A stretch of DNA of 64,000 nucleotides from an uncultured beta proteobacterium (GCA_963747775.1 CAVVGT010000005.1:3148-67147); one strand, 5' to 3'; shown: positions 36,209 through 51,740, counted from the first letter of the stretch. Notes: generated by a model from the letters alone, not told the origin. A program made the numbers and translations.

Positions 36209-37669
36209 TCAGGGGAGGAAGTAGTCGACGTAAAGGGACGGCGTTGCGGGATCGACCGCGACGCGCGCGGCGAAGGCCTTCCACAGCCGCTCGTCGGCGT
36301 GCTTGCGTCTCGGGTCGGTCGCCGTCGGGCCTTTGCCGTCGGCGCGCAGCACGCGCCCGCGGGTCTTTTCCAGCAGATGCGGGTACAGCGACTCGGCCGG
36401 CATGTCCCACTTCTTGGTCTTGTTCGCGAATTGCTGGTCGACCGGGATCGCCGCGACGAGCCCGGGATGCGACATCGCCTCCAGGCCGCCGTCCTTGAGC
36501 GTGGCGTTGTGGCTGCCGTGGTGGCCGACCTTGTAGAACACCGTGCGTGCCAGCAGGTCGTTCGCGCGCACTTCGGTGCGCGTGCCGCCGTCAGTGACCT
36601 TCCACGCGAGCTTCTGCCACGACAGCCAGTTGCCGATCTGCGCATCGGCCGCGAAGAGGAGCACCTCTTTCGTCGCCGTGAACTCGAACGCGAGCACCAT
36701 GCTCAGGTTGTTGACGACGTTGTCCAGCTTGAGCGCGAGCTGTTCGGCGGCGAGCAACCACTGATCGTCGATCGTCCGCCAGCGCTCGTCCGGCGCCCGG
36801 TACCGGGCGACGACCGGCGCCAGGGTCGTCTCAGTGCGCGCCCGCGCGTCGCTCCAGTGCAGGCTCGCCTCGAAGGGACACATCGCCTCCGTCCGGGCCG
36901 CGCCTTCGACGGCCGAGTCCTTGCTCGCGGCAACCGCATCGAGCAGGCCTGCGTAGAAGCCCGAGTCGGCGCCGAGGCCGTACATCTCCGAGCCCTTCTT
37001 GCCGAGCAGCTTGCCGAGGAGCTTTTCGTCGCGGGGCGGGGCGAGCACGTAGATGCGCACCCCCGGCAGCCACGCCGGGGCGAGGAGGTCGCCCGGCTCG
37101 CAGTAACGGGGGTCGGGTGCAAGCTCGCGGAGTGCGGCCAGCGCGGCATCGGTTCCACGCACGCCCGCGGCGCTCACCGGCCCGAAGAACGACAGGATCT
37201 GTTCGATCGCCGCCCCGCGCGCGCGGGCCGCCTCGTCCGGCGAGACGGCAAGTCGAGCCAGCGCCCTTCGCGCCCCGTCGAGCTGCAGCGCGGTCGCGCG
37301 GGTCCGCTCGCGGCCCTCCGGATCGTGCGGGTTCTCGGCCCAGGAGAGCCAGACCTCGTCGATCCGCAGCGCCTTGAACTCGTCCCGCGCGTCGAAGAAC
37401 CCGGACAGGTGGTCCCAGTGCGGATGGGTGCCGACAATCGCACTCACGCGGCCGCCGGCTTCCTTTGCGACGTTGGCAGCGATGCGCTGTGCCCACTGCT
37501 TGCTGTCGGGCGTCCCGCCGAGCACGCCGCAGTCGATCAGGATGTGGCTGGGCTTCGGGCCGGTGTAGAACGAGAGGAGGAACGCGTCGCCGATACCCTG
37601 GCGATACATCCGGATGCGTACCCTGGGGCGGCGCCGCGCGGCGCGCTTGCTTGCGACGGTCTCAGCCAT
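36209..37669 (-). CDS. metallo-beta-lactamase-fold hydrolase
   Basis: HPHWDH motif (nt ~37409-37426) after ..GDAFLLSF..ILIDCG.. Start MAETV overlaps the upstream stop (ATGGCTGA). Confidence 0.75.
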   Translation of the reverse strand: MAETVASKRAARRRPRVRIRMYRQGIGDAFLLSFYTGPKPSHILIDCGVLGGTPDSKQWAQRIAANVAKEAGGRVSAIVGTHPHWDHLSGFFDARDEFKALRIDEVWLSWAENPHDPEGRERTRATALQLDGARRALARLAVSPDEAARARGAAIEQILSFFGPVSAAGVRGTDAALAALRELAPDPRYCEPGDLLAPAWLPGVRIYVLAPPRDEKLLGKLLGKKGSEMYGLGADSGFYAGLLDAVAASKDSAVEGAARTEAMCPFEASLHWSDARARTETTLAPVVARYRAPDERWRTIDDQWLLAAEQLALKLDNVVNNLSMVLAFEFTATKEVLLFAADAQIGNWLSWQKLAWKVTDGGTRTEVRANDLLARTVFYKVGHHGSHNATLKDGGLEAMSHPGLVAAIPVDQQFANKTKKWDMPAESLYPHLLEKTRGRVLRADGKGPTATDPRRKHADERLWKAFAARVAVDPATPSLYVDYFLP

Positions 37670-39680
37670 GGTCGGTCTCCGGATTGAACCCATGGAGCTG
37701 CGCGAGCTGCCGCGACGGGTCGGTCTCGTCCAGCGCGCCGAAGTACATGCCCGCGAGCCCCGCGCGCCAGCCGACGCGGAATGCGCGCTCGGCCTCGAGG
37801 CGGGTGTCGCTCCGGGCGTTCTTGCGGATCACGTAATCGATGTCGCCCGAGCGCAGGTCCACGACGATCGTGCACCCGCCGCGAAACATGAACGACCCGG
37901 CGCCCGGCGCGCCGTCCGCTTCGGCGCGCTCCTGCACGATCGACACCAGTCCCTGCGGCACGCCGGGGCCCGCGGGCGAGGACTTGCGGGTGAACTGCAG
38001 CGAGCGCAACTCGAAGGCGGCGTGGCCGGGGCGCAGATCGAGTCCCATGTTCTCGGCGAGGACGTTCCGCTGCTGCGTGTCGAGCGACCGGAGCAGGCGC
38101 TGCACCGAATCGTGCAGCTCGCCGCGCCACTTGCTGAGGTGCGCGAAGATGTCGCGGCGGGGATCCGCGGCGTCGCGATTGTCGAGATACGCGTATTCGT
38201 CCGCGTAAGGCCTCAGGACGAGCGGTCGCCCGCGCAGCAGCGCCCGGACCTCCGCGCTCGGGCGGTCCCACACGAGGTTGTCCACCGCGAGCGACCGCAG
38301 GCCCTTCGGGTAGATCCCCCGCGCGCGGAACGCCTCCACGATCGCGACTCGATAGCCCAGCCGGTCCTGCGGCACGACTTGGATGTCCGCAGTGATGAGC
38401 GCGCGGAGATAGTCGCCGAACGTGAGATCGACCGGCGGGCAGTAGTCGAGCGCGCGCACGCAGATCGTCAGCAGGTGGCCGGCGGCCTTCGCGGCCTCGT
38501 CGGCGAGCCTTTCGACCAGGTCGGGATGCAGCGCGCCTTCCGGCAGCACGCCGCTGCCCCCCGTGGCGATGCGGACGAGATCGACGGTGCGCCGCTCGTA
38601 GATCCTGAGAAACGCATCGAACACGGCGGCGACGAGGATCGCGCCGCGCTCGTGGGGCTCCTGCGTGCGCATGAGCGCCGCCGGATCGGGCTCGAGCCGC
38701 GTCCAGGCCCGCGTCTGCGGATCGACGTGGCCGATCGCGCTGCGTAACGCCCCGTACCGGCCCGTCGCCTGACCGAACTGGACCGCGAGCTCGGCGAGCA
38801 GGTTGCGCGTGCGCAGGTCGCCGCGGGCCCGGGCGATCTGGTGGCGCAGCACGCCGGGCAGCGAAAAATGCTGGAACAGCGCGACCAGGTCGGCGAAGGC
38901 CTCGTGGAACGCGAGCGTGTCCGGATTGCTCGGGTGGAGCAGGGACGGGTGAACCCCGTCGAGGATGGCGTGCGTCGTCTCGTGGGCCACGATGTCCTGG
39001 GACAGGCACGTGAACACGGTGCCGCCGGGATAGACGCGGCCCGGATCGGTGTCGGCGGCGGGGAAGTAGCCGAAGAGCAGCGCCTTGCGCTGCGGATCGT
39101 AGAACGCGTTCTGCTGCCGCAGCGCGTGCGGGTAGACGCGCAGCTGACCGACATAGACGGCTGCGCCGGAGGGCAGCATGTGCGGCGACCACAGCACCCG
39201 GCGCCCGAGGGCGCGCTCGAAGTGCTCGATCGTCCGCATCGCCACCGCGTACACCATCTGCTGGTGGAACTGCGGGTTGGCTTCGGACGGCGCGAGCCCG
39301 TTCTGGGCGAGCAGGGCGCGATCGTCGAGGTCGACGGGCTGGTAGAAACATTCGCTCGCAGGATCGTAATCGATCACGTCCAGGTAGTCACCGCGCGGCC
39401 CGGGCTCGAGCTTTGGCTCCCACGGCACTTCGTAGACGATCTCGTTGATCTCGACGGACTCGAGCTCGGTCGAGAGCTGGGGGTCGAATGCGTATCCGCG
39501 CAGGAGCCGTCGGGTGGGCTGCGGCGGCGCGACGGCGCGCGGCGGCCAATAGCCCTGGGTCGAAGCGCTCCGCGTCGAGGCCGGCTTGCGGGCCTGGCCC
39601 GCGGAGCGGCGCGCGCCCTTGGCCGGATGCGGATTCCCGAGAGCCTTCTTTCGTAGCTTGGACGCTGCCATCGTGCTCAC
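37662..39680 (-). CDS. thermolysin-like (gluzincin, M4-like) zinc metallopeptidase with basic disordered N-terminus, no signal peptide
   Basis: ..QQNAFYDPQRKALLFGY.. + VAHETTHAILD (nt ~38970-38984) + FHEAFADLVA parallels the thermolysin NAFW / HELTH / NEAISD active-site layout. GTG 39680 or ATG 39671 as start. Confidence 0.7.
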   Translation of the reverse strand: MSTMAASKLRKKALGNPHPAKGARRSAGQARKPASTRSASTQGYWPPRAVAPPQPTRRLLRGYAFDPQLSTELESVEINEIVYEVPWEPKLEPGPRGDYLDVIDYDPASECFYQPVDLDDRALLAQNGLAPSEANPQFHQQMVYAVAMRTIEHFERALGRRVLWSPHMLPSGAAVYVGQLRVYPHALRQQNAFYDPQRKALLFGYFPAADTDPGRVYPGGTVFTCLSQDIVAHETTHAILDGVHPSLLHPSNPDTLAFHEAFADLVALFQHFSLPGVLRHQIARARGDLRTRNLLAELAVQFGQATGRYGALRSAIGHVDPQTRAWTRLEPDPAALMRTQEPHERGAILVAAVFDAFLRIYERRTVDLVRIATGGSGVLPEGALHPDLVERLADEAAKAAGHLLTICVRALDYCPPVDLTFGDYLRALITADIQVVPQDRLGYRVAIVEAFRARGIYPKGLRSLAVDNLVWDRPSAEVRALLRGRPLVLRPYADEYAYLDNRDAADPRRDIFAHLSKWRGELHDSVQRLLRSLDTQQRNVLAENMGLDLRPGHAAFELRSLQFTRKSSPAGPGVPQGLVSIVQERAEADGAPGAGSFMFRGGCTIVVDLRSGDIDYVIRKNARSDTRLEAERAFRVGWRAGLAGMYFGALDETDPSRQLAQLHGFNPETDHG

Positions 39681-39836: not shown

Positions 39837-42800
39837 TCAGCGCTTGCTCTGTATGGCCTCCTGCAGCAGGCTTGTGGCCCTGAGCGGCGGGATCCACACT
39901 TCCAGGTCGCCCGGCTTCTCCTTCTTGGAGCGCGTCGCGTCGAGTGGCAGAAGCGACAGCCGCAGCGTGTATCCCCCCTGCGAGAGGGCGCGTTCGACCC
40001 GGTCGCGGACTTGGGCGGCGGCCCTCTCGTCCTGCGGGAAGAAGTACCGCACGTTCCCCGAGGTCCGCCTGCCGGGGACCTCCTCCGATCCCTTCACGAC
40101 CAGACCGGGAATCTGGCCGAGCGCTTTCGCCACCTGGTCCACGAGTTGCGCATCGCTTCCGTCCGCGTAGTGGAGGAACACCCGCGTCACACGCACGTCG
40201 GCGGGCGCGGTCTTGTCGCCGAGTTGCGCGAGGCGGCGCTCGGCCAGCGTACGCGTGTCGAGACGCATGGTGAGGGAGGCGACCTTGCGGTAATCCGCGA
40301 TTGCGGCGTCGACCCGGCCCATCCGCTGCAGCAGCGATCCGCGCTTGAGGTAGGCCTCGACGTCAGCCTCGACGTCATCCGGACGCAGCTCGATCGCCTT
40401 CTCGTAGTCGGCGAGCGCGGCGTCGTTCTTCCCCTGGGCATCGTGGACGACGGCACGGCGATAGTACATGGCGGGGTCCGCGGGCCGGAGATCGATCGCT
40501 ATGTCGAAGTCTTCCTTCGCGCCGGCCCAGTCGCGGGTCGTCGCGCGCAGGGCGCCGCGCAGCAGGTAGTTCTCGACCCGGCCCGGCCTGAGCTTGATCG
40601 CCATCGTCAAGTCGGCAATCGCGTTGTCATACTCCGGGTCGGCGAGTTCCGCGTACGCCTGTCCCCGCTTCGCGTACACGCGGTCGAGGTCGCTCTCGTG
40701 ATAGTCGGGGATCGCTTTCGTGTAGCGTTCCATCGCCTTCGGGTAGTTCCGCTCGGCGGCGAACGCGTCCGCTTCCGCGACCAGCAAGATCGCCACCTCG
40801 GCGCGCCCGCGCGCAAGTTGCTGTTCCGCCATCCACCACCACCAGCCGAGCGCCAGCGCCAGGCTGCAGACGACCGCCAACGCGACGGCCGCCCAGCCCC
40901 GCGTCCGGGCCGCCTTGCTGCCACGCATCTCGCCGAGGCCGATGAACTCGAGCTCCTGCGCGTTCAGATCGGCGCCGCGGGAGTCGCGCCATGCTTTGGC
41001 TGCTTGGAGCTGCGCGCCGGAGAGCAGCCCGCCGGGGTCCCGCTTGCTCTTCTCCCAGTCCGCGCGATACGCGCCCAGCAGTTCGCGCCAGCGCAGGAAC
41101 TCGCGGTCGGCTTCGACCCATTCGCGCAGTCGCGGCCATTGCTGGGCGAGCACCGGGTGCACGAGCTCGGCTGCCGGCGCGTCGGACTCGGCGGTGCAGA
41201 GCACGACGAGCCGCGACGTCGCGAGTTGCTCGAGCAGGGCGGCGACGGCTTCGCCGGGCGCCGCCTTCGACTCGAGCTCGGACCGGAGCGCGCGCCGGAT
41301 CCGGTCCGCGGCCGGATGCGGACCGACGTTCACGAGCCGCGGCAGGACGCGCTGCGCGAGCGCGCGCTCCGCGTCGTTGAGGCCGTCCAGGGCCGCGTCG
41401 GCGCGCGCGACGAGTAGCCCGCGCACACCGCCCATGTCGTCGTAGGCCGCATTGGTGAGAAAGCCTTCCCGGCGCCGCACGTACAGGCTCTGCAGCAACA
41501 GCTGGAGGAGCGGCAGGCGAAACGCCTCGGTGCCGAGATCCTCGATGATGCGGTCGACGAGGCCGGGTTCGAACGTGAGTCCGGCGCGTGCCGTCGGTTT
41601 CTCGATCGCCTGGCGCAGCTCGTCGCGCGTAAGATCGCCGAGTCGGACGACGCCCGCGTCGTCCGCGGGCACCGGCAGCGGCGTGCCCGCGAGCCGGCGG
41701 ACGAAGTCCGAGCGCGCCGCGATCACCGTCACGATGTCCGGCCGTTTGCGCTCGAGTGCGGCGACGCGCTCGAGGAAGCGCGTTCGCAGGCGGGCGTCGA
41801 AGCTCGGCGCAAACACTTTCTCGAGCTCGTCGATGAAGAGCACGTGGCGCGCGTCGGCGCCCGCGCCGGGCGCGAGGCGGGCCAGGACGCGCGTCAGGCT
41901 GGCGACCGGATCGGTGCCGGGCACGATGCGCTCGAGCCGGCGGGGCGCATCCGCGGCGGCCTGGCTGCGCCGCAGCTCGGAGAACGCGCCGGCCATCACC
42001 AGCGAGCGCTTGCCGCTGCCGCTCGGCCCGAGCACCCAGACGCGTGTTCGGGAGCGCAGGTGGTCGAGCAGCCGCGCGCGCAGCTCGTTGCGTCCGAAGA
42101 AGAATGCAGCGTCGTGCTCCTGGAACCGCTCCAGCGGCCGGAAGGGGCTGCTGACCGCCACCGCGGTCCCGCGGGTCGTCCAGGTCAGCGTGTGCTCCTG
42201 ATCGACGCCCTCGGGCGGCGCGCCTTCGACTGTCGGCTCCGGCCGCGCGGGCGCGAGCGCGGCGATGCGCGCGACGAGCGGGTCGAGCTGGTTCGCCGAT
42301 GCGCCTTCGCGCAGGTCGAGGATCTCCTCGCCGAGCCCTGGCGTCGGTGCCGGGCTCGCGCTCGGCAGCAGCACCTTGAACGTCACGAAATTGCGGCTCG
42401 CACGCACTGCCGCGACCACGTGTTGGAGTCCCTCCGATTGCGCCGGCGTGAGGCCGCCCGGTCCGATGAAGACGACGAGCGCCCTGGAATGGAAAAGCTG
42501 CTGCTCGCTGCGGCGCTGCCACTCGGGCGGCGGCACCGCGTCCAGCTCGTCCACGAAGGCGCGCAGATCGGCGCGCTTCAGCGCCGCCGCGAACGCCTCG
42601 GCGGCAGCGCTGTCCGCGGTCGCGGTCACGATGTATGCGTCGTAACTGGCGTATCGCGCCGTGAGGTCGTACTGGGCCGCGACCTGCGGCGGGGTGTCGC
42701 CGGCGTCTTGCGCGAGCGCGGCGAGCCGGGTCCCGGGTGCGGCGAGATAGGTCAATGCGTCGGCGAGGCGGTGGAATGCGGTGGCGATGCGCTCCCGCTG

Positions 42801-43652
42801 CGCCACGTTGGCGGGATCGGCGAGGATGCGCTCGTCGAACGCATACTGGGGCTCGTAGGGCACGAGCAGGTCGGCGAAGCCGATGCCTCGCGCGCGCAGC
42901 GCCTCCGGCACGCTGTCGCCGAAGGTCGCCGCGAAGCGGGCCATGAACTCGTCGAGCAGCTCCCGCCGGCGCTGCTCGATGCGGGCCGGGACGACCACGA
43001 TCTGCGGCGGACGGCTCTGCCGCAGCGCAAGCACCTGCGGCGAGAGGAAGTCCGCAGCGACGTTCTGCGTGCCGCGCACGTTCTGGTGGTTCGCCGCACA
43101 CATCATGACGATCACGTCGCCGAGCTGGTAGGCGCAGATGCCGCCCATCTCGGTGACGCCGGTGCGGCTGTCGACCAGCACGAGGTCGTAGCGCTCCGGG
43201 ACGAGCTGGCCGCGCAGCCACTCGAAGAAGAGCTCGCCTTCCCAGTTGAAGTAGAAATCCTGCCAGTCGAAGCTGCGCACGTTGAGCGCGTAGTGCTCCA
43301 GCTGCGCCGGGTCCTCGCGTTCGCCCGCCGGCATGAGGTCGAGGCAGCCGTCTCCGGGCAGTCGCTCGTACACCGGCAGGATGAACCGGCGCACGTCGCG
43401 GAAGTCCGCGCTCGCAGCCTCGCCCGAACCGACCGACATCGCGTGCTTGAACTCGAGCAGCAGGTCGAGGAGGCCGGCGTGACGGCGCGCGCTCGGCTGA
43501 TGGATCTGGAAGTACTGCTCCAGCCCGGGCGCTTCGAGATCGAAGTCGATCATGAGCACGCGCGCGCCGCGCCGGGCGAGGATGTCCGCGACGTTCGCCA
43601 TCGCCATCGAGCGGCCGACGCCGCCCTTGTACGAGTAGAACGTGACGATCAC
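39837..43652 (-). CDS. 1271-aa multidomain protein: ParA/MinD-like ATPase (KGGVGR) - TIR-like module - STAND-type P-loop NTPase - TM helix - TPR repeats - C-terminal alpha/beta domain
   Basis: YSYKGGVGRS..DSRTG; YDAYIVTATADS..; PFRPLERFQEHDAAFFFGRNEL..VWVLGPSGSGKRSLVMAG..LFIDELE; WAAVALAVVCSLALALGWWWW; repeated A..Y..AI.L.P TPR pattern. GTG start overlaps the upstream stop (GTGA). The upstream 62 codons of ORF 39837..43838 are R-rich overlap. Confidence 0.8.
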   Translation of the reverse strand: MIVTFYSYKGGVGRSMAMANVADILARRGARVLMIDFDLEAPGLEQYFQIHQPSARRHAGLLDLLLEFKHAMSVGSGEAASADFRDVRRFILPVYERLPGDGCLDLMPAGEREDPAQLEHYALNVRSFDWQDFYFNWEGELFFEWLRGQLVPERYDLVLVDSRTGVTEMGGICAYQLGDVIVMMCAANHQNVRGTQNVAADFLSPQVLALRQSRPPQIVVVPARIEQRRRELLDEFMARFAATFGDSVPEALRARGIGFADLLVPYEPQYAFDERILADPANVAQRERIATAFHRLADALTYLAAPGTRLAALAQDAGDTPPQVAAQYDLTARYASYDAYIVTATADSAAAEAFAAALKRADLRAFVDELDAVPPPEWQRRSEQQLFHSRALVVFIGPGGLTPAQSEGLQHVVAAVRASRNFVTFKVLLPSASPAPTPGLGEEILDLREGASANQLDPLVARIAALAPARPEPTVEGAPPEGVDQEHTLTWTTRGTAVAVSSPFRPLERFQEHDAAFFFGRNELRARLLDHLRSRTRVWVLGPSGSGKRSLVMAGAFSELRRSQAAADAPRRLERIVPGTDPVASLTRVLARLAPGAGADARHVLFIDELEKVFAPSFDARLRTRFLERVAALERKRPDIVTVIAARSDFVRRLAGTPLPVPADDAGVVRLGDLTRDELRQAIEKPTARAGLTFEPGLVDRIIEDLGTEAFRLPLLQLLLQSLYVRRREGFLTNAAYDDMGGVRGLLVARADAALDGLNDAERALAQRVLPRLVNVGPHPAADRIRRALRSELESKAAPGEAVAALLEQLATSRLVVLCTAESDAPAAELVHPVLAQQWPRLREWVEADREFLRWRELLGAYRADWEKSKRDPGGLLSGAQLQAAKAWRDSRGADLNAQELEFIGLGEMRGSKAARTRGWAAVALAVVCSLALALGWWWWMAEQQLARGRAEVAILLVAEADAFAAERNYPKAMERYTKAIPDYHESDLDRVYAKRGQAYAELADPEYDNAIADLTMAIKLRPGRVENYLLRGALRATTRDWAGAKEDFDIAIDLRPADPAMYYRRAVVHDAQGKNDAALADYEKAIELRPDDVEADVEAYLKRGSLLQRMGRVDAAIADYRKVASLTMRLDTRTLAERRLAQLGDKTAPADVRVTRVFLHYADGSDAQLVDQVAKALGQIPGLVVKGSEEVPGRRTSGNVRYFFPQDERAAAQVRDRVERALSQGGYTLRLSLLPLDATRSKKEKPGDLEVWIPPLRATSLLQEAIQSKR

Positions 43653-45409
43653 TTGTTCGTCGCGTGCTGGTAGATCAGACTGCTCACCCCGCGGCGGCGA
43701 TCCGGGCCGACGATGTTCTCGAAGCGCTCGAGCTTGGACGGGTCGGCGCGCGGCCGCGTGAGGATGTCGAGCGTGCCGGGCAGGCTCGCGTGCAGCCAGC
43801 GCCGCAGGCGGCGCTCCTCGCCGACGCCGAACTCGCACGCCGGGTCGAGATCGAGCTCGAAGCGGTCGAACGCGCCGGAGAGCTGCTTGCGGGTCCGCGT
43901 CTCGAGCAGCTGGTTCACGGGCGAGCCGCTATCGTCGAGCGGGGACACGGTCACGATCGCGACCTGGCCCATGGCGACGAAGGACGCGCACGCCTCCGCG
44001 ATCGCGCTGTGGAAGAGCGACAGCTCGTCTACGAGCGCAACGCACCCGGTGAGCGCGATTTGCTGGTAGATGGGCCGCAGCTCGGGATGCGCGCGATCGA
44101 GCCAGGCGTCGAACGGGTAGTACTGGAGCTTGATCTGGCGCCGCTGCGCGCTGCCGGCCACGCGCCGCCCGTTCAGCCGTTTGGCGATGTCGGCGCCGAT
44201 GTCGCGCACGGTGGTGCCGCCGAACGGCTTCCACTGGCGGCGACCCGCGCCGTAGCGCGCGTCCGGTCCGCCGGCGCGCTCGAGTGCGGCCTTGAGCTCC
44301 ATGAATTGCTTGTAGCGGTCCGGCCCGAGCTCGCCCTGGAGCGCGTCGCTGTGCTCGAGCAGCGCGACGGCTTCGTCGCGCGTCATCGCGATCACGACGC
44401 AGGGCACGCCGACAGTCGGCAGCCCGGGCTGCGTCGGCCGTCCGGCCATCGTGGCGACGACCTGGTTCGCCGCGCCACCGGCCGTCACGTCGATGAGCTT
44501 GGTAAAGGGCCACGCGGGCGGCAGCGCGTCGGGCTTCACCCCGGCGAGCAGGCCGACCAGCCAGCCGGTGCGAGTCTCCAGCACCTCCAGCGCGCGGGCG
44601 ACCTCGGCGGGACGGGAGGCGAGCTGCTCGAGGCCGGCGGGGCTGAGCCAGACGAGCGCGGAGTGGCACTGGATCGCGAGCTGCTCGAGGTCGGAAAACT
44701 CCGCCTCGGTCTCCGCGAACAGCGCCTCGGGGGCGAGCAGCGCGCTCAGCCCGGTCTTCTTGAGCTCGTCGGCGAAGGCCCCCGCCGCGTCCTGGTCGAG
44801 GCCCGGCGCATAGGCGAGCGCCGCGCCAAACGTGACCTCGCGCTGGAGCCGCGCAGGCGCTGCGGCCGAGACCGGTGGCTTCGGTGGGGGTGCGCCGCGC
44901 TGCGTCCACAGCGAGACCGCGTTCGCGACCAGGCCCGCGAGCTCGGTCGGCCCCTTGAAGAAACTCACCGTGTGCGCCTTGCCCAGCTCCTCGCGCAGCG
45001 CCTTGATCTTCGCGCCGGCGCCGTTCTCGCCGGTCGCGATGTCCATGAACTCCTCGGCCCACGGGGTCTTGGGGTCGAGGAGGAAGATCAGACACTGCTC
45101 GGCGCCGAGCGCGCCGAGCGCGGTACGGTACTCGGCCTCGGTGATCGACCACTTTTGCGGGTTCGCCGCCTCGTCCGGCACGTAGCCGTAGCGCTTCGCG
45201 AAGATGCCGACGTAGAGGTCGCACGGCGGCAGGTTCTGCGCGGAGTCGCCGGCGATGTCGCGTAGGCATTTCGCCAGGGGGCGCGAGCCGTCGGCGACGT
45301 ACTCCTCCATGCCGACGACCTCGTGTCGGAGCTGGCGCAGGCTCCTCGCGACCTCCTCGCGGTGGTCCTTCAGGTCCTGGAACGTCGAAGAGAGATAGAT
45401 CCTTGCCAT
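43649..45409 (-). CDS. DUF4062-type N-terminal domain protein (586 aa) with uncharacterised middle and C-terminal regions
   Basis: MARIYLSSTFQDLKDHREEV..DLYVGIFAKRYGYVP.. matches the DUF4062 pattern I know. GGGGGAGG RBS. First gene after a 139-nt gap. Confidence 0.65.
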   Translation of the reverse strand: MARIYLSSTFQDLKDHREEVARSLRQLRHEVVGMEEYVADGSRPLAKCLRDIAGDSAQNLPPCDLYVGIFAKRYGYVPDEAANPQKWSITEAEYRTALGALGAEQCLIFLLDPKTPWAEEFMDIATGENGAGAKIKALREELGKAHTVSFFKGPTELAGLVANAVSLWTQRGAPPPKPPVSAAAPARLQREVTFGAALAYAPGLDQDAAGAFADELKKTGLSALLAPEALFAETEAEFSDLEQLAIQCHSALVWLSPAGLEQLASRPAEVARALEVLETRTGWLVGLLAGVKPDALPPAWPFTKLIDVTAGGAANQVVATMAGRPTQPGLPTVGVPCVVIAMTRDEAVALLEHSDALQGELGPDRYKQFMELKAALERAGGPDARYGAGRRQWKPFGGTTVRDIGADIAKRLNGRRVAGSAQRRQIKLQYYPFDAWLDRAHPELRPIYQQIALTGCVALVDELSLFHSAIAEACASFVAMGQVAIVTVSPLDDSGSPVNQLLETRTRKQLSGAFDRFELDLDPACEFGVGEERRLRRWLHASLPGTLDILTRPRADPSKLERFENIVGPDRRRGVSSLIYQHATNK

Positions 45410-45548: not shown

Positions 45549-47144
45549 TCAACTCTTCAACGCTGCGGCAATCGACCGGATCGAGATTCCTTCGTTCGCG
45601 GCGTACGTGCCGTCCTTGCCGTTCAGCCGCGGCATGCCCATCTTGCCGCCCTTGTGGTGGAGCGCGATCACCTCCCAGAGCTTGGCGTTGAACACGGGGC
45701 TGCCCGAGCTTCCGCCTTCGGTGGGTGCGCGGTAGTGGAGGCGCCAGACGTCCGGGATCTGCGGCTTGCCCGCCGGCGGGCCCTCGTGATCGAGGAGCTC
45801 GTTGTCCTGGAACGAGAACGCGAGGTCGCGTCCGCCCGGATGGCCGATGATGTAGACGCGTGCCGTCGATTCCACCACCGGCAGCGCGGCGGCGACCGGC
45901 AGCGGCTCGATCCCCGTCACCGGGGTTTTCATGCGCAGCAGGCTCGCGTCATGGCGATCGGGCGGCGAGCTCCAGAGGAGCTCGCCGACGGCATAGGCGC
46001 GGTCCGCACCGGCGGCTTCGAAGACGACCTCCGCCGCGTCGGGCTGGATCCCCGGGCTCGCGCCATGCTCGTTGACGACGTGGAAATTGGTCAGGACCAG
46101 CAGCTCGTCCCTGGGCTCCCGGCCGAGGTCGCCGGCGCGCACCAGAAACCCCGTGCCGATCCGGCTGCCGAGTTGCGGGCGGATCGCGGCGACGGCGAGC
46201 GCGCGGTCGAGCCCGGTCTTCCACCAGCGGTACGTCTGCGGCCCCTCCGTGCCGAGCACCGCCTCGAGCTGCGATCGGTCCGGCGCCGGCGCTGTCCGCA
46301 AGCGCTGCAGCTCCGCACGCCCGAGCTCCAGTCCGCCGCCCGGCAGCGCCATGAGTCGCGCACGCAGGATGTTGACGAGGCCCCGGCCACGGTCATCGGT
46401 CTGTTCCAGGTCCCACACACCGGTGAACTGTCGTACGGTGCTCGCGATCTGAAACGCCTTGGCGTCGTCTGCAGCCGCATACGCCCGGACGTTGCGCTCG
46501 ACCGCGTCCCAGTCGCCCAGACCCAGCGAGGCTTCGGCCAGCGTCGGCAGATACCACTCGTCGCGCTGCTCTCTGGGCGTCGCCTCGAGCGTCGCAATCA
46601 CCTGCTGCGCGATGTCGCGGGGCTGAAGGTCCGCGGCGAGGCGCAGGCCCAGCCCGCGGGCGCGGGTGAGCAGCGCGATGAGGTTCACGCCGTGCCACGT
46701 GTTCGCGGCATGCTCCTCGAACGGCTTGCGATACGCGACGATCGCCTGCTTCAGCGCCTCGCGCGCGCCCGCGCTCGTCTTGTCGCCGGCATCGAAGAAG
46801 ATCTGCTTGTAGGCGCGGCCGAGCAGGCCCGTCGCCTCGGCCGCCTCGGGGTCGGTCTTCGGCAGCCGCTGGGCGAGCGGCCGCAGGAGATCGATCGCCG
46901 CGGTGGCCTTGCCGGTGTCGATCAGGTACTGCGCGTAGAGGCGGCGGTTCTTCGCGTCCTTCGGGTCCCGCCGGCTCACTGCCTCGGCGACCTGACCCAT
47001 GATCTCGTAGTCGCGGACGTTGCGCAGCGCCTCGACGAGCCGCTTGGCGCCGGCGAGATCCTCGACGCTCCCCAGCCCGCGCAGGTGCTGCAGCGCGTCT
47101 TTCGCGCGCTCGCGCAGCTCGTCGACGGTCGGCTCGGCGCTCAT
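45549..47144 (-). CDS. DUF4071 (TPR-like, MAP3K TRAF-binding-type) domain fused to C-terminal trypsin-like serine protease
   Basis: Start MSAEPTV within ORF 45549..48728. ..NTWHGVNLIALL.. is the DUF4071-type region. Protease triad context: NFHVV (His), DASLL (Asp), GGSSGSPV (Ser). Confidence 0.75.
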   Translation of the reverse strand: MSAEPTVDELRERAKDALQHLRGLGSVEDLAGAKRLVEALRNVRDYEIMGQVAEAVSRRDPKDAKNRRLYAQYLIDTGKATAAIDLLRPLAQRLPKTDPEAAEATGLLGRAYKQIFFDAGDKTSAGAREALKQAIVAYRKPFEEHAANTWHGVNLIALLTRARGLGLRLAADLQPRDIAQQVIATLEATPREQRDEWYLPTLAEASLGLGDWDAVERNVRAYAAADDAKAFQIASTVRQFTGVWDLEQTDDRGRGLVNILRARLMALPGGGLELGRAELQRLRTAPAPDRSQLEAVLGTEGPQTYRWWKTGLDRALAVAAIRPQLGSRIGTGFLVRAGDLGREPRDELLVLTNFHVVNEHGASPGIQPDAAEVVFEAAGADRAYAVGELLWSSPPDRHDASLLRMKTPVTGIEPLPVAAALPVVESTARVYIIGHPGGRDLAFSFQDNELLDHEGPPAGKPQIPDVWRLHYRAPTEGGSSGSPVFNAKLWEVIALHHKGGKMGMPRLNGKDGTYAANEGISIRSIAAALKS

Positions 47145-47155
47145 TGCGCCCGGCC

Positions 47156-48097
47156 TCAGAAGCGGAGCATTCGCCGCAGCGTGCTGGCGAAACTCTTCTG
47201 GCGCAGGTACTTCGTGATCGAGTGCCGCCACGCGCCGTCGTTCTGGACCGCGATGTCCTCGACCGCCGACTTGCCGCCTTTGCGGTAGTCGCTCGCGAGT
47301 ATGGGGTCGAACCCGCAGACGGGATCCAGCCGGTCGAACAGGTTGACCCAGTCGCCGGCGACCCGCTCGTGCGGGAACCCGTCCGCGCGACTCCAGCCCG
47401 GCTGCAGCTTGTCCTGGATCTCGTCGAGGCCGAGCGGGCTGCCGAGCGTGATGAATCCGTCCACCGCCGCGCAATCGGTGACTCGCTTGAGGCAGTCGTA
47501 GGCGATGACCGTGCCCATGCTGTGGGAGACGACGATGTGCGGTCGGGTGACTGCGGGCGCGCAGACCGCGTCCGCAAAACGCCGCCGGATCGTCTGCTGG
47601 ATGCGCACCGCGGGGGTGCGGCCCGGCGGTGCGAACTCCACGTCGAACAGGTAATGATGCACGTCGCTCAAGTACGCTTCGAGGACGCGTTTCTTGATGA
47701 ACCAGGGCAGCGGCACGCGCTCGAGCGCACCTTGCGGCGCTGCGGGCGCGGGGACGGGCGCGGCGGTCTCGAGCTCCGCGTCCGAGAGCGTCGTCATTTT
47801 CGCGCGCAGGGCCGCGATGAACGCCGCCTCCTCCGCGCTCTGCGGCCGGGGGGGCGAGGCGTTCCCGCCGCCATCGATCGCCGCGGCGCTGTTCTCGAGC
47901 ACGCCTTCGTAGGCCGTGAGGTCGTCCTCCGGCTTCGCGTAGAGGAGATCGGCCCAGTAGACCAGCGAGCTGCTCACGCCGAGATCGCCCAAGGGCAGCG
48001 GCTCGGCGGCCTCCGCCAGGGCGTCCCGCCAGATGCGCAGGAGATCGTCCGCCGGCGGCTTGTTCGCGATTCCGTGAATGAAGGTGACGTGCGGCAT
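47156..48097 (-). CDS. alpha/beta hydrolase (lipase/esterase-like), no signal peptide
   Basis: VTFIHGI.. and nucleophile elbow VSHSMGT (GxSxG). 313 aa. Confidence 0.65.
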   Translation of the reverse strand: MPHVTFIHGIANKPPADDLLRIWRDALAEAAEPLPLGDLGVSSSLVYWADLLYAKPEDDLTAYEGVLENSAAAIDGGGNASPPRPQSAEEAAFIAALRAKMTTLSDAELETAAPVPAPAAPQGALERVPLPWFIKKRVLEAYLSDVHHYLFDVEFAPPGRTPAVRIQQTIRRRFADAVCAPAVTRPHIVVSHSMGTVIAYDCLKRVTDCAAVDGFITLGSPLGLDEIQDKLQPGWSRADGFPHERVAGDWVNLFDRLDPVCGFDPILASDYRKGGKSAVEDIAVQNDGAWRHSITKYLRQKSFASTLRRMLRF

Positions 48098-48157
48098 GGT
48101 GCGCTTCCCCTCGTGGGTGTCGAAGCAGTCGGTCTTCGGGCGGCGACGGGCCGATTC

Positions 48158-48772
48158 CTAGAAGTCGTAGGTCGGGTCTTCGCCCAGGTCTGGAATCCTC
48201 GCGACGTAGCCGGTCGCGCCGAAGTCCAGCGGGATGGCTGCCTCGTACCCGGGGAGGCCGACCTCCTTGCGCAGCGCGTTGAGCCGGTTCATCCAGCCTT
48301 TCAGGAAGACCGCGAGGTCCGGGTTCTGCCGGGCGAGACGACGGTAATAGGCCTCGCGCGCGTCGCAGTAGGCCGCGATTCCCCGGCCGATGTCGCAGGC
48401 TGCGGCCGCTCGCTCCGTCTGCGGCCCGAAGTCGCCGTCCACGCCGCATCCGACCGCCGACTGCAGGAACCGCACTGCGCGCCCGACCCCCATGTTGACC
48501 GCGGTATCGAACTGCACGAGATCGAGTTGCTGCCGCAGGAGATCGCATCGCGGCGGCAGCCAATAGCCGCTCTCGTAGATCGCCTGCACTTCGCGGTCCT
48601 CGATCAGCTTGACGTCCCGCCGGGCGAATTGCTGCCGCGCGCGCCACGCATCGTAGACCTTCTGCGTCACGCCCTTGTTCGTCCGTCCGCCCGGATCGGC
48701 GGGATGATCTACAAAACCGCCCTCCCACCGCAGAATGAAGGGCAGCGAGCGCTCGAAGGCGGGGGACGGCAT
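48158..48772 (-). CDS. glycoside hydrolase family 108 muramidase with C-terminal peptidoglycan-binding domain, no signal peptide
   Basis: ..FILRWEGGFVDHPADPGGRTNKGVTQ.. (GH108 catalytic region) and ..VDGDFGPQT.. (PG-binding). Start MPSPAF within ORF 48158..49081. Confidence 0.75.
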   Translation of the reverse strand: MPSPAFERSLPFILRWEGGFVDHPADPGGRTNKGVTQKVYDAWRARQQFARRDVKLIEDREVQAIYESGYWLPPRCDLLRQQLDLVQFDTAVNMGVGRAVRFLQSAVGCGVDGDFGPQTERAAAACDIGRGIAAYCDAREAYYRRLARQNPDLAVFLKGWMNRLNALRKEVGLPGYEAAIPLDFGATGYVARIPDLGEDPTYDF

Positions 48773-48964
48773 GGCGTTCTCCTGTTCATGCGGACCGCGT
48801 TCCGCCGCCCGGCCCGGCCTCGAGCGCGGCCGGCAACGTCGGCCCGACTGTCGGCGCACACTGTAGGGCACGCGGCATTCCTTGGCCAGTCGACCAAACT
48901 GCATAGACCCCGGCGGCGCCGGGAACGTCGCACGGCTGCCGGCGGCCGCGGTCCGGATGGAGCC

Positions 48965-48981
48965 GGGAGACCGTGTCTCCC
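48965..48981. promoter_or_regulatory. perfect palindrome GGGAGAC-cgt-GTCTCCC in the divergent intergenic region, ~28 nt upstream of the ATG at 49009
   Basis: Read in the sequence. Candidate operator or 5'-UTR hairpin; no functional evidence. Confidence 0.2.
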
Positions 48982-49008
48982 GACGGTGAAAACCCTGGAG
49001 GGCAAACG

Positions 49009-49767
49009 ATGAGAAAGACTTTGGCAGCATCCGCGCGCGACTACGTCCTGAAGCTGGACCTTCCCTTTGCGCCGCCCGCATTCGAGGCGGTGACCGCGAT
49101 GGCGTTTTCGGACCAGCGCGAGGCGGTCGCCGTCGGTGCGCAGCTCGCGGAGTTCACCCCTGCGGTGCCGGCCGGCGTGCGCGGCGCCATCGCCGACAGC
49201 ATCCTGCTCGCGCAGCTCGCCGCCAACAAGGTCACCACCCAGACGGAGGACGTCTTCCGCTGGTACGACAAGTACATCGAGGTGCTCCAGAACATCGGCT
49301 GGCAGGTCCGGGACCTCGATTTCCAGGCGCAGCAGGTGAGCGACCAGGACGCCTGGGTGCACAAGGAGATCATCCCGGTGCTCGCGCTGCTGCTCGGGCC
49401 GCAGGCCGCGGCCGCCTCGATCGTGATCGCGGTGCTGAACGGTCTCCAGAATATGGATTCGAGCTCCCCCTGGATCACGCTCTTCGACCAGTCGAGCCAG
49501 CACGCGCGCGGCGCGAAGTTCCAAGTGAGCTACGTCGATGCCGACGCGCAGGGATCCCCGGAGATCTCGCTCCTCTGCTTCGGCATCCAGGCGGACCGGA
49601 CCATCACGCAGGTGCTGTTCTTCAAGACCTCCGCGCAGAGCGCCGAGGTGAAGAAGGCCTCGGCCAAGCTGGCCGTCAGCATGGAGCGCCTGAACTCGGC
49701 GAAGGACGCCCTTGCCGGCCGCGTGCAGCCCTTCATTGCGGACTACGTGAAGAACATCGACATCTGA
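49009..49767 (+). CDS. hypothetical 252-aa protein (no family recognised), first gene of the plus-strand unit
   Basis: MRKTLAASARDYVLKLDLPF.. with a GGAGGG RBS. One hydrophobic segment (IIPVLALLLGPQAAAASIVIAVL). 14 nt upstream of the next gene. Confidence 0.55.
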   Translation: MRKTLAASARDYVLKLDLPFAPPAFEAVTAMAFSDQREAVAVGAQLAEFTPAVPAGVRGAIADSILLAQLAANKVTTQTEDVFRWYDKYIEVLQNIGWQVRDLDFQAQQVSDQDAWVHKEIIPVLALLLGPQAAAASIVIAVLNGLQNMDSSSPWITLFDQSSQHARGAKFQVSYVDADAQGSPEISLLCFGIQADRTITQVLFFKTSAQSAEVKKASAKLAVSMERLNSAKDALAGRVQPFIADYVKNIDI

Positions 49768-51736: not shown

Positions 51737-51740
51737 GCAG

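What the first reader, a model, noticed from the sequence alone, without database searches (positions are those of the whole stretch)
39837..43652. Giant protein combining two different P-loop NTPases (ParA-like and STAND) with a TIR-like module, and a TM helix separating them from a TPR sensor arm
The domain order from N to C is as follows. First a deviant-Walker-A ParA/MinD-type ATPase (YSYKGGVGRS, aa 6-15, nt ~43608-43637; DSRTG switch). Then a degenerate TIR-like module (YDAYIVTATADS.., aa ~335-430, nt ~42363-42650). Then a STAND-type NTPase with the signature PFRPLERFQEHDAAFFFGRNEL..VWVLGPSGSGKRSLVMAG (P-loop nt ~42003-42029) plus Walker B LFIDELE and a helical arm. These are followed by one strongly hydrophobic helix (WAAVALAVVCSLALALGWWWW, nt ~40830-40898) preceded by K/R residues, about 5 TPR repeats (nt ~40254-40766) and a ~120-aa alpha/beta domain (nt 39840-40196). 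STAND immune sensors are normally soluble. Here the presumed ligand-sensing TPR arm would lie across the membrane from the NTPase and TIR modules, suggesting envelope or periplasm surveillance. Fusion of a ParA-like ATPase to a STAND NTPase in one chain is also unusual.
Basis: partly seen in the sequence, partly recalled or inferred. Interest (0 to 1): 0.85.

Follow-up and report, generated by a model that had tools for sequence, protein, structure and literature searches.

The report
Membrane-spanning STAND immune sensor with NADase partner
This 1271-residue protein of an uncultured betaproteobacterium is a predicted membrane-spanning, NLR-like (STAND) sensor whose repeat arm probably sits in the periplasm; it is always encoded next to a TIR-like NAD-degrading partner, so it looks like an uncharacterised two-gene immune system rather than a one-off oddity.

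Summary
ORF 39837-43652 (-), 1271 aa, has these parts in order:
- a KGGVGR-variant ParA/MinD-like ATPase
- a TIR domain
- an nSTAND1 NTPase
- one hydrophobic helix
- about 5.5 TPRs
- a roughly 110-aa alpha/beta C-terminal domain

All assignments pass curated HMM thresholds or come from a confident AlphaFold model.

The fusion is not rare. More than 1700 homologues share the ATPase-TIR-nSTAND1 core. The hydrophobic helix sits at the same place in 105 of 115 long homologues, with a strong positive-inside bias. That bias predicts cytoplasmic NTPases and an extracytoplasmic C-terminal arm, which is TPR, WD40 or FGE-sulfatase depending on the member.

- The gene overlaps by 4 bp an upstream gene for a DUF4062 (TIR-like NADase) protein. 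The C-terminal domain of that protein accompanies KGGVGR ATPase genes in 72 of 78 genome loci across phyla. The ParA-like module is therefore the constant handle of a modular two-gene system.
- The TIR lacks a conserved catalytic glutamate, so it is probably a scaffold.

Best reading: a trans-membrane STAND sensor that activates the partner NADase. It is a new variant of a known kind, and its function is untested.

The parts
39837..43652 (-). Target gene, 1271 aa plus stop: KGGVGR ATPase - TIR - nSTAND1 - TM - TPR - C-terminal domain
   Evidence: ORF and start. The exact 1271-aa product is on record. Domains.
42933..43652 (-). KGGVGR-motif variant ParA/MinD-like ATPase domain (aa 1-240). The P-loop KGGVGRS lies at nt 43608-43628. 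The DSRTGVTEMGG switch is invariant.
   Evidence: NF047398 scores 147 bits against 90. It aligns to Soj, MinD and ParA P-loops. The motifs are invariant in 38 homologues. Mean identity is 72%.
42303..42647 (-). TIR domain (aa 336-450), probably non-catalytic
   Evidence: TIR_2 scores 33.5 bits against 28. The family profile hits TcpB/BtpA, AbTIR and PdTIR at 3e-8 to 6e-6. The catalytic-Glu column is Gly in the query; it is Glu in 3 and Asp in 2 of 38.
41034..42146 (-). nSTAND1 NTPase module (aa 503-873). Walker A GPSGSGKRS is at nt 42003-42029 and Walker B VLFIDELE at nt 41820-41843.
   Evidence: PF20703 scores 290 bits, E 4.8e-86. Motifs are shown.
40830..40898 (-). Predicted single trans-membrane helix (aa 919-941), inside a continuous helix of about 69 residues
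   Evidence: It is the only hydrophobic window in the protein. An equivalent segment is present in 105 of 115 homologues, with a positive-inside bias. Sequence identity is only 18% while hydrophobicity is kept. AF2 shows one long helix.
40224..40805 (-). About 5.5 TPR repeats (aa ~950-1143), predicted periplasmic
   Evidence: TPR_1, TPR_2, TPR_8 and TPR_11 hits. AF2 mean pLDDT is 89.5. Foldseek matches consensus TPR, MamA and OGT TPR structures.
39840..40196 (-). C-terminal alpha/beta domain (aa ~1153-1271) with a ferredoxin-like beta-alpha-beta-beta-alpha-beta(-beta) topology and the conserved motif EVWLPPL. It is weakly LytR_C-like.
   Evidence: AF2. The query has no Pfam or PDB sequence match. 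LytR_C is the only family hit by several homologues: 4 of 18, best E 0.0014.
43649..45409 (-). Partner gene (586 aa) whose stop overlaps the target's start (GTGA). It has three parts: a DUF4062/NIR TIR-like NADase domain (nt 44900-45409), a second flavodoxin/TIR-like domain (nt 44444-44842) and a constant C-terminal domain (nt 43652-44434).
   Evidence: DUF4062 scores 68 bits against 24.7. The T-E-x-E-Y motif is invariant. AF2 pLDDT is 86 and Foldseek hits SARM1, STING and SPARTA TIRs. The partner sits upstream of homologues in unrelated contexts. The C-domain is found in 72 of 78 loci.

Best explanation
The gene is the sensor and switch subunit of a two-gene conflict (probably anti-phage, abortive-infection type) system.

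**Shown**
- The domain order is KGGVGR ParA-like ATPase, TIR, nSTAND1 NTPase, one conserved hydrophobic helix, TPRs and an alpha/beta C-terminal domain.
- The gene is translationally coupled to an upstream gene. That gene encodes a DUF4062 (TIR-like NADase) domain joined to a constant C-terminal domain.
- The pairing of that constant domain with a KGGVGR ATPase gene is conserved across bacterial phyla and in Methanothrix. Everything else is swapped: the partner's N-terminal effector and the part of the ATPase protein after the ATPase domain.

**Inferred**
- The helix spans the inner membrane N-in/C-out. The two NTPases and the TIR are then cytoplasmic, and the TPR plus C-terminal domain periplasmic.
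- Binding of an envelope or periplasmic cue by the TPR/C-terminal arm is transmitted through the long trans-membrane helix. The cue could be a phage component at entry, or an envelope or peptidoglycan change.
- This releases nSTAND1 nucleotide-dependent oligomerisation.
- Oligomerisation clusters the non-catalytic TIR and the ParA-like modules, which dimerise or dock the partner through its constant domain.
- The clustered partner DUF4062 domains then become active NADases, deplete NAD+ and arrest the cell.
For: - **Domains:**
- **TM helix as a family trait:** 105 of 115 homologues have it. The uncharged core is 21 +/- 2 residues. K+R is 5.5 on the N flank against 2.6 on the C flank, and N exceeds C in 96 of 105. 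It is the only hydrophobic segment in the protein.
- **Interchangeable arm:** it is TPR+CTD, WD40 or FGE-sulfatase, or is absent, on a constant ATPase-TIR-nSTAND1-TM core. This is the pattern expected of a STAND sensor.
- **Fast-evolving arm:** it is the fastest-evolving part among close orthologues, at 62-70% identity against 87-96% for the ATPase and STAND segments. dN is 0.16-0.23 against 0.02-0.06.
- **Host range:** TPR-CTD forms occur only in diderm phyla.
- **CTD:** weakly LytR_C-like, an envelope-associated domain.
- **Partner:** it lies immediately upstream, mostly with a 4-bp overlap, in otherwise unrelated neighbourhoods. Its constant domain is found in 72 of 78 loci and is always C-terminal in 434 cluster representatives.
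- **Variable partner N-termini:** DUF4062, TIR_2, trypsin, calcineurin-like phosphoesterase and bDLD1.
- **Catalytic residues:** the DUF4062 catalytic E-Y is invariant.
- **Published DUF4062 function:** DUF4062 domains are NADases acting in anti-phage defence (PMC13174449; 10.64898/2026.09.04.749371; 10.64898/2026.06.25.731849).
- **TIR:** the catalytic Glu is not conserved.
- **ATPase conservation:** 72% identity against 30-36% elsewhere.
- **Defence database:** PADLOC candidate PDC-M28B matches the ATPase at 3.2e-25.
Against: - There is no experimental evidence for topology, ligand, oligomerisation, NADase activity or phage defence.
- No dedicated topology predictor was available. The call rests on hydropathy and charge bias.
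- Streptomyces members end in a two-helix hairpin with no extracytoplasmic domain. Membrane anchoring, rather than periplasmic sensing, may therefore be the ancestral role.
- The ATPase P-loop Lys is Arg. In the query clade the STAND Walker A Thr is also Arg (GKRS). One or both NTPases may therefore bind but not hydrolyse nucleotide.
- The partner has no PADLOC hit.
- The physical interaction between the ATPase and the partner's constant domain is inferred from gene linkage only.
Confidence: 0.55

Rival explanations
1. The helix is only a membrane anchor. It places a cytoplasm-sensing STAND system at the inner membrane, for example at the site of phage DNA entry, or it senses membrane perturbation. 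The periplasmic TPR/CTD merely tethers or positions the complex on the envelope. The trigger is detected by the cytoplasmic modules or by the partner.
For: Membrane association is more conserved than any extracytoplasmic domain. Streptomyces and other members end in 2-3 TM helices with no C-terminal domain. The CTD is fairly conserved (invariant D, G, E, P and L) and weakly LytR_C-like, as expected for binding a host envelope component.
Against: In STAND proteins the C-terminal repeat arm is normally the sensor. Here it is swapped between TPR, WD40 and FGE-sulfatase on a constant core and evolves fastest among close orthologues. That fits a sensor better than a tether.
Confidence: 0.25
2. It is not an immune system. 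Instead it is a regulatory or developmental envelope-signalling protein. This would fit source annotations based on domain similarity, such as BcsQ-like, TadD-like or Mrp/MinD-like.
For: JGI names such as 'cellulose biosynthesis protein BcsQ' and 'Flp pilus assembly protein TadD'. NCBIfam gives weak similarity to periplasmic TPR proteins of pili, flagella and EPS systems.
Against: These equivalog models score far below their cutoffs, for example MinD 23 bits against 213 and BcsQ 22 against 158. The conserved neighbour is a DUF4062 NADase-type protein, and no pilus, EPS or cellulose gene is seen in the neighbourhoods read. The partner N-termini are classic conflict effectors or adaptors: TIR, trypsin, phosphoesterase and Death-like. 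The distribution is patchy and multi-phylum. Adjacent genes are TPR-S/trypsin and TIR/TPR-S conflict-type proteins.
Confidence: 0.1
3. The hydrophobic segment is a buried or coiled-coil helix, and the whole protein is a soluble cytoplasmic STAND sensor.
For: No experimental topology exists and no dedicated TM predictor was run. AF2 alone cannot tell a TM helix from a solvent-exposed one.
Against: The core is an uncharged stretch of 21 +/- 2 residues with KD up to 2.9. It is conserved in position but not in sequence (18% identity). It is flanked by a K/R-rich N side in 96 of 105 homologues. In the model the segment sits in a single long helix and is not packed against other elements.
Confidence: 0.05

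Closest known systems
nSTAND1-clade STAND NTPase conflict systems (Kaur et al. 2021, PMC8195603; Pfam PF20703)
   Same: The central NTPase is a full-length, high-scoring nSTAND1 module. It follows the usual STAND plan of an N-terminal TIR-type module and a C-terminal repeat or lectin-type arm. Homologues also carry WD40 or FGE-sulfatase arms, as described for this clade.
   Different: The sections of that paper read here describe no N-terminal KGGVGR ATPase, no helix between NTPase and arm, and no obligatory upstream partner. Here all three are family traits.
Anti-phage STAND/NLR-like sensors: Avs families and bacterial NACHT proteins (PMC13581612; bioRxiv 10.1101/2022.07.19.500537)
   Same: The logic is tripartite: effector, NTPase and sensor. 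A TIR/NADase-type output is expected. Some NACHT proteins have TM regions that were proposed to sense intramembrane or periplasmic signals.
   Different: Characterised Avs and bNACHT proteins are cytosolic sensors of phage proteins. This protein has no PADLOC Avs hit, belongs to another STAND clade, carries a second P-loop module and seems to outsource catalysis to a separate protein.
ParA/MinD/Soj deviant Walker-A ATPases, and the NCBIfam 'KGGVGR-motif variant AAA ATPase' (NF047398)
   Same: The signature lysine, the KGGVG P-loop, and the DxD and D-S/T-x-x-G switch elements align to Soj, MinD and ParA. The protein passes the NF047398 cutoff.
   Different: The canonical P-loop Lys is Arg (KGGVGRS). 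There is an aromatic-rich insertion of about 100 aa between the Walker A' and B regions. The partition, MinD and BcsQ equivalog models are far below cutoff. No ParB/MinE-type partner is present; the conserved neighbour is instead the constant domain of an effector-bearing protein.
DUF4062/NIR NADase defence systems (Swarozyc, Evangelion, Vulcan/Vesta, DUF4062-Avs2; PMC13174449, 10.64898/2026.06.25.731849, 10.64898/2026.09.04.749371)
   Same: The partner's N-terminal domain is a DUF4062 domain with the catalytic E-Y motif conserved and a TIR-like fold.
   Different: Those systems are single proteins, small two-gene systems with a phosphatase, or direct DUF4062-STAND fusions. Here DUF4062 sits on a separate protein, linked by a constant domain to a membrane STAND protein. 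Term searches of the three papers found no mention of this arrangement.
Toll-like receptors (analogy only)
   Same: The topology matches: an extracytoplasmic solenoid repeat arm, a single TM helix and a cytoplasmic non-catalytic TIR that would nucleate downstream TIR-type proteins.
   Different: TLRs have LRRs, no NTPase and the opposite N-to-C order. Only the TIR domain is homologous. This resemblance rests on general knowledge, not on a test run here.
PADLOC phage-defence candidate PDC-M28 (component B)
   Same: The N-terminal ATPase matches the PDC-M28B models at 3.2e-25 and 1.8e-12.
   Different: Only the ATPase part matches. The partner matched no PADLOC model, so no PDC-M28A. No description of PDC-M28 was found in the literature held.

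Membership tests
nSTAND1 STAND NTPase (PF20703) | Full-length match to the family HMM above the gathering score | tested here: met
   290.2 bits against 27.1; profile positions 1-378 of 379; aa 503-873
nSTAND1 STAND NTPase (PF20703) | Canonical Walker A GxxxxGK[ST] and Walker B hhhhD..E | tested here: inconclusive
   Walker B VLFIDELE is present, and D608 and E611 are at least 90% conserved. Walker A is GPSGSGKRS in the query clade, with Arg where the other homologues have Thr (GKTS).
TIR domain (PF13676 TIR_2) | HMM match above the gathering score, and similarity to solved TIR domains | tested here: met
   33.5 bits against 28. The family profile hits TcpB/BtpA, AbTIR, PdTIR and Roq1 TIR at 3e-8 to 8e-5. 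The single query sequence alone finds no solved TIR.
Catalytic (NADase) TIR domains | Conserved catalytic glutamate at the start of helix alpha-C | tested here: not met
   The column aligned to the TcpB/AbTIR catalytic Glu is Gly408 in the query. It is Glu in 3 and Asp in 2 of 38 homologues. The neighbouring column is Glu in 11 of 38.
KGGVGR-motif variant AAA ATPase (NCBIfam NF047398) | HMM above cutoff and a KGGVGR P-loop | tested here: met
   147.4 bits against 90. KGGVGRS is present in all 36 homologues that have an N-terminus.
ParA/MinD/Soj partition or division ATPases | Match to the equivalog models and a canonical KGGxxK[ST] P-loop | tested here: not met
   ParA_partition scores 24 bits against 180, MinD 23 against 213 and BcsQ 22 against 158. 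Pfam ParA scores 25.9, below 27.1. The P-loop Lys is replaced by Arg. Only superfamily-level similarity remains.
Single-pass inner-membrane protein, N-in/C-out | One hydrophobic helix of about 20 residues, a positive-inside charge bias and no other TM or signal peptide | tested here: met
   There is one window with KD of at least 1.6. It is conserved in 105 of 115 homologues, with a core of 21 +/- 2 residues. K+R is 5.5 against 2.6.
Single-pass inner-membrane protein, N-in/C-out | Experimentally shown membrane insertion and orientation | not testable with these tools
   This needs PhoA/LacZ/GFP fusions, fractionation or protease protection.
Characterised Avs / PADLOC defence systems | Match to a model of a validated defence protein | tested here: not met
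   The only hits are candidate PDC-M28B on the ATPase, a weak mad8 hit (7.8e-4) and a generic TPR hit. The partner has none.
DUF4062/NIR NADase (partner protein) | HMM above cutoff, a TIR-like fold and a conserved catalytic Glu (E-Y) | tested here: met
   68.4 bits against 24.7. T90, E93 and A97 are invariant in 32 homologues. Foldseek hits SARM1, TIR-STING and SPARTA TIRs.
LytR_C (PF13399) for the C-terminal domain | HMM match above the gathering score | tested here: not met
   The query has no hit at E of 10 or less. Only 4 of 18 homologous CTDs give weak hits, best E 0.0014. This is a lead, not a membership.

The most novel reading that the evidence does not exclude
The protein is a true trans-envelope NLR-like receptor. 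A periplasmic TPR/LytR_C-like arm detects an extracytoplasmic danger signal, such as phage adsorption or injection machinery, or cell-wall damage. It signals through one helix to a cytoplasmic STAND switch. A non-catalytic TIR and a ParA-like dimerisation module then assemble and activate a separate DUF4062 NADase. This would be a bacterial counterpart of Toll-like-receptor logic. In addition, the KGGVGR ATPase plus constant-domain partner pair would be the core of a modular conflict system, undescribed in the literature read here, that is shared by many bacterial phyla and Methanothrix and has swappable effectors (DUF4062, TIR, trypsin, phosphoesterase, Death-like) and swappable sensors.
Probability: 0.35. 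Interest if true: 0.8.

Novelty: new variant of a known kind. Interest (0 to 1): 0.6.

Why it matters
Characterised bacterial STAND/NLR-like immune sensors (Avs, bNACHT) detect phage proteins inside the cell. A family that places its variable sensor arm outside the cytoplasmic membrane would be different. It would show that bacteria also run NLR-type surveillance of the envelope or periplasm, possibly before or at genome entry. It would also offer a simple model for trans-membrane activation of a STAND switch.

The conserved pairing of a KGGVGR ParA-like ATPase with a constant domain on effector-bearing proteins gives two further things. It assigns a concrete, testable role (effector docking or licensing) to a variant P-loop family with no assigned function that NCBI annotates widely. 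It also adds a new delivery route for the recently discovered DUF4062/NIR NADases.

Tried and rejected
- **Foldseek on the C-terminal model.** All top hits are TPR proteins, so the C-terminal domain could not be identified this way. The tool cannot search a sub-domain.
- **Sequence searches for the C-terminal domain.** A profile search against PDB sequences and a Pfam scan of the query's own domain at E of 10 or less gave nothing significant. Scanning all 18 homologous domains gave only weak recurrent LytR_C hits.
- **Single-sequence phmmer of the query TIR against PDB.** It found no TIR. A family profile was needed.
- **EACC1 as the partner.** I considered that the partner could be the EACC1 component that Kaur et al. 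link to nSTAND1. This was rejected. EACC1 is a small single-TM domain paired with a caspase protein, whereas the partner here is a soluble three-domain alpha/beta protein.
- **Partner's middle and C-terminal domains.** Pfam, NCBIfam and PADLOC gave no hits.
- **Window's own public contig.** An attempt to read its annotated neighbourhood failed.
- **Literature term searches.** KGGVGR and PDC-M28 returned nothing relevant.
- **The 1333-aa reading from the GTG at 43838.** Rejected. The extra 62 residues overlap the partner gene out of frame and are absent from all homologues.

Full report
**1. Observation**

The frame is open from 43838, but translation almost certainly starts at the GTG at 43652.
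- The GTG overlaps the TGA stop of the upstream gene (GTGA).
- All homologues begin M/V-I-V-T-F-Y-S-Y-K-G-G-V-G-R-S.
- The exact 1271-aa product is on record from a 132-kb NCBI/ENA contig.

Full-length orthologues of 1267-1302 aa at 81-96% identity occur in independent assemblies. dN/dS against the L001 orthologue is 0.47 overall and below 1 in each domain. The long ORF is therefore real. One orthologue, L005 at 90% identity, is broken at residue 759. That is a frameshift or an assembly error.

**2. Domains**

Curated profile libraries confirm every assignment.

| Module | Residues | Evidence |
|---|---|---|
| KGGVGR-variant ATPase | 2-200 | NF047398, 147 bits vs cutoff 90; CbiA above cutoff |
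| TIR_2 | 343-448 | 33.5 bits vs 28 |
| nSTAND1 | 503-873 | 290 bits, E 4.8e-86, full profile length |
| TPR | ~950-1127 | several TPR families |

- The ATPase P-loop and switch regions align to Soj, MinD and ParA. The partition, MinD and BcsQ equivalog models are far below cutoff. It is a superfamily relative, not an orthologue.
- The canonical P-loop Lys is Arg (KGGVGRS), and this is invariant in the family.
- The TIR is degenerate in the query, since single-sequence phmmer finds no solved TIR. A profile of the family's TIR region does hit TcpB/BtpA, AbTIR, PdTIR and plant TIRs at 3e-8 to 8e-5.
- The column equivalent to the catalytic glutamate is Gly in the query. It is Glu or Asp in only 5 of 38 homologues. 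I read the TIR as a scaffold rather than an enzyme.
- The STAND Walker B is intact. In the query clade the Walker A reads GKRS where the other homologues have GKTS.

**3. The hydrophobic helix and topology**

- The protein has one window with Kyte-Doolittle hydropathy of at least 1.6, at aa 919-941.
- Among 115 homologues of at least 1000 aa, 105 have such a segment directly after the nSTAND1 module.
- The uncharged core is 21 +/- 2 residues.
- K+R averages 5.5 in the 15 residues on the N side and 2.6 on the C side. N exceeds C in 96 of 105.
- Sequence identity in this segment is only 18%, while hydrophobicity is retained.
- With no signal peptide or other hydrophobic segment, this predicts N-in/C-out. 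Both NTPases and the TIR would be cytoplasmic and the last ~330 residues extracytoplasmic.
- No dedicated topology predictor was available, and nothing here is experimental.

**4. The C-terminal arm**

- AlphaFold2 was run on aa 897-1271 with 18 homologues (mean pLDDT 89.5).
- The model shows one continuous helix of about 69 residues containing the TM core, 11 TPR helices (about 5.5 repeats) and a beta-alpha-beta-beta-alpha-beta-beta domain.
- Foldseek returns only TPR proteins.
- The terminal domain has no Pfam or PDB sequence match for the query. LytR_C is the only family hit by several homologous domains: 4 of 18, best E 0.0014. LytR_C is a domain of cell-envelope proteins. This is a weak lead consistent with an extracytoplasmic location.
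- On the constant ATPase-TIR-nSTAND1-TM core, the arm is TPR+CTD, WD40, FGE-sulfatase or absent.
- TPR+CTD forms were seen only in diderm phyla: Betaproteobacteria, Gemmatimonadota, Acidobacteriota, Myxococcota and Deltaproteobacteria. Streptomyces members end in a two-helix hairpin.
- Among close orthologues the arm is the fastest-evolving part. It shows 62-70% identity against 87-96% for the ATPase and STAND segments, and dN of 0.16-0.23 against 0.02-0.06.

**5. The partner and the two-gene core (beyond the finding's coordinates)**

The upstream gene is 43649-45409 (-), 586 aa.
- It encodes a DUF4062 domain (68 bits vs 24.7).
- Its T-E-x-E-Y catalytic motif is invariant in 32 homologues.
- The AF2 model (pLDDT 86) shows three alpha/beta domains.
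- Foldseek hits on that model are TIR domains of SARM1, TIR-STING and SPARTA.

The same gene precedes homologues of the target at 40-44% identity in otherwise unrelated neighbourhoods, with a 4-bp overlap.

Pattern and tblastn search of the species-level genome collection gave 80 further loci, 83 held in all.
- The partner's C-terminal ~260 residues are found immediately upstream of the KGGVGR ATPase gene in 72 of 78 cases.
- This includes loci where the partner N-terminus is TIR_2, trypsin, calcineurin-like phosphoesterase or a bacterial Death-like domain instead of DUF4062.
- It also includes loci where the ATPase is followed by FHA, TPR, NACHT, AAA_5, TIR+WD40, or pentapeptide+TPR-S+patatin rather than TIR-nSTAND1.

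A phmmer search of 1.84 billion cluster representatives finds 434 proteins with this domain, always at the C-terminus. No Pfam, NCBIfam or PADLOC model covers it.

The ATPase domain is by far the most conserved part of the target, at 72% identity against 30-36% elsewhere. The ParA-like module is therefore not an odd extra NTPase. It is the constant handle that pairs with a constant domain on an effector-bearing protein.

**6. Mechanism (inferred)**

- The periplasmic arm senses a cue.
- The long helix transmits the signal across the membrane.
- nSTAND1 oligomerises.
- The clustered TIR scaffolds and ParA-like modules dock and concentrate the partner.
- The partner's DUF4062 domain then degrades NAD+.

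DUF4062 domains were recently shown to be NADases acting in anti-phage defence and activated by assembly (PMC13174449; 10.64898/2026.09.04.749371; 10.64898/2026.06.25.731849).

What is shown is anatomy, linkage and conservation. The remaining steps are inference.

The main rival is that the helix is only an anchor and sensing is cytoplasmic or intramembrane. Members without any extracytoplasmic domain support that rival. Interchange and fast evolution of the arm argue against it.

**7. Comparison with what is known**

- nSTAND1 was defined by Kaur et al. 2021 as a STAND clade with TIR or other N-terminal effectors and FGS or repeat arms (PMC8195603).
- MinD/ParA-like domains predicted to be inactive were noted as effector-position domains in VMAP ternary systems (PMC7159879).
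- NACHT proteins with TM regions were suggested to sense intramembrane or periplasmic signals (10.1101/2022.07.19.500537).
- DGR-diversified STAND proteins with periplasmic lectin domains were predicted (PMC10907252).
- PADLOC lists the ATPase as candidate PDC-M28B.
- I found no description of the ATPase plus constant-domain partner pair, of the TM helix as a trait of this nSTAND1 family, or of the DUF4062 pairing. The held library is incomplete.

I therefore rate this as a new variant of a known kind: a STAND conflict system.

**8. Source and context**

- The nearest genomes are uncultured betaproteobacterial MAGs (L005 at 90%, L004 at 81%).
- The local gene order is shared with close relatives only: GH108 lysozyme, a ~313-aa unknown, TPR-S/trypsin, partner, target, then an HExxH protein.
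- A divergent TIR/TPR-S gene lies nearby.
- The locus therefore sits among other conflict-type genes.

Noticed in passing
window 45549-48728 (-); the real gene is probably ~45549-47150: A TPR-S (sensor TPR) plus Trypsin_2 protein lies directly upstream of the partner gene. The 1059-aa ORF is over-extended; the orthologue in L001 is 531 aa. It is a conflict-system type protein, conserved next to the pair only in close relatives.
   Followed up: partly
window 49782-53528 (+): A 1248-aa ORF with a TIR-like N-terminus (PADLOC TIR effector, 5.9e-6) and a TPR-S domain. It lies divergent from the locus and is possibly another independent conflict gene.
   Followed up: no
window 48158-49081 (-) and 47156-48097 (-): A Glyco_hydro_108 plus PG_binding_3 (lysozyme-like, peptidoglycan-binding) gene, followed by a ~313-aa ORF without Pfam hits. 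The same order is seen in the 82%-identical locus L001.
   Followed up: no
window 37662-39680 (-): The downstream ORF (672 aa as listed) has HETTH and HEAFAD metalloprotease-like motifs but no Pfam, NCBIfam or PADLOC hit. It is 156 bp from the target's stop. An unannotated gene of similar size follows the orthologue in L001.
   Followed up: no
window 42003-42029 (-): The STAND Walker A of the query and its four closest relatives is GKRS, with Arg in the Mg-coordinating Ser/Thr position. More distant homologues have GKTS. Together with the Lys-to-Arg change in the ParA-like P-loop, both NTPases of this protein are deviant.
   Followed up: partly
L070, L076, L082 (genome loci): Shorter relatives (722-965 aa) join the KGGVGR ATPase to a TM helix with no TIR match and only a short match to the STAND segment; L070 and L076 also carry the TPR plus C-terminal domain arm. 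The TM segment, with or without that arm, may be a transferable cassette.
   Followed up: no
L015-L021, L029 (Streptomyces loci): Actinobacterial members of the family end in a two-helix hydrophobic hairpin about 60 residues before the C-terminus, with no extracytoplasmic domain.
   Followed up: partly
L005:10001-13807: The 90%-identical orthologue in MAG MFD10007.bin.1.21 is interrupted at residue 759, although tblastn matches residues 1-1271. This is a frameshift, pseudogene or assembly error.
   Followed up: no
L039, L045, L058 (Methanothrix MAGs): The partner constant-domain plus KGGVGR ATPase gene pair also occurs in archaea. There the partner N-termini are Death-like (bDLD1) or phosphoesterase, and the ATPase protein carries TPR or WD40 arms.
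   Followed up: partly
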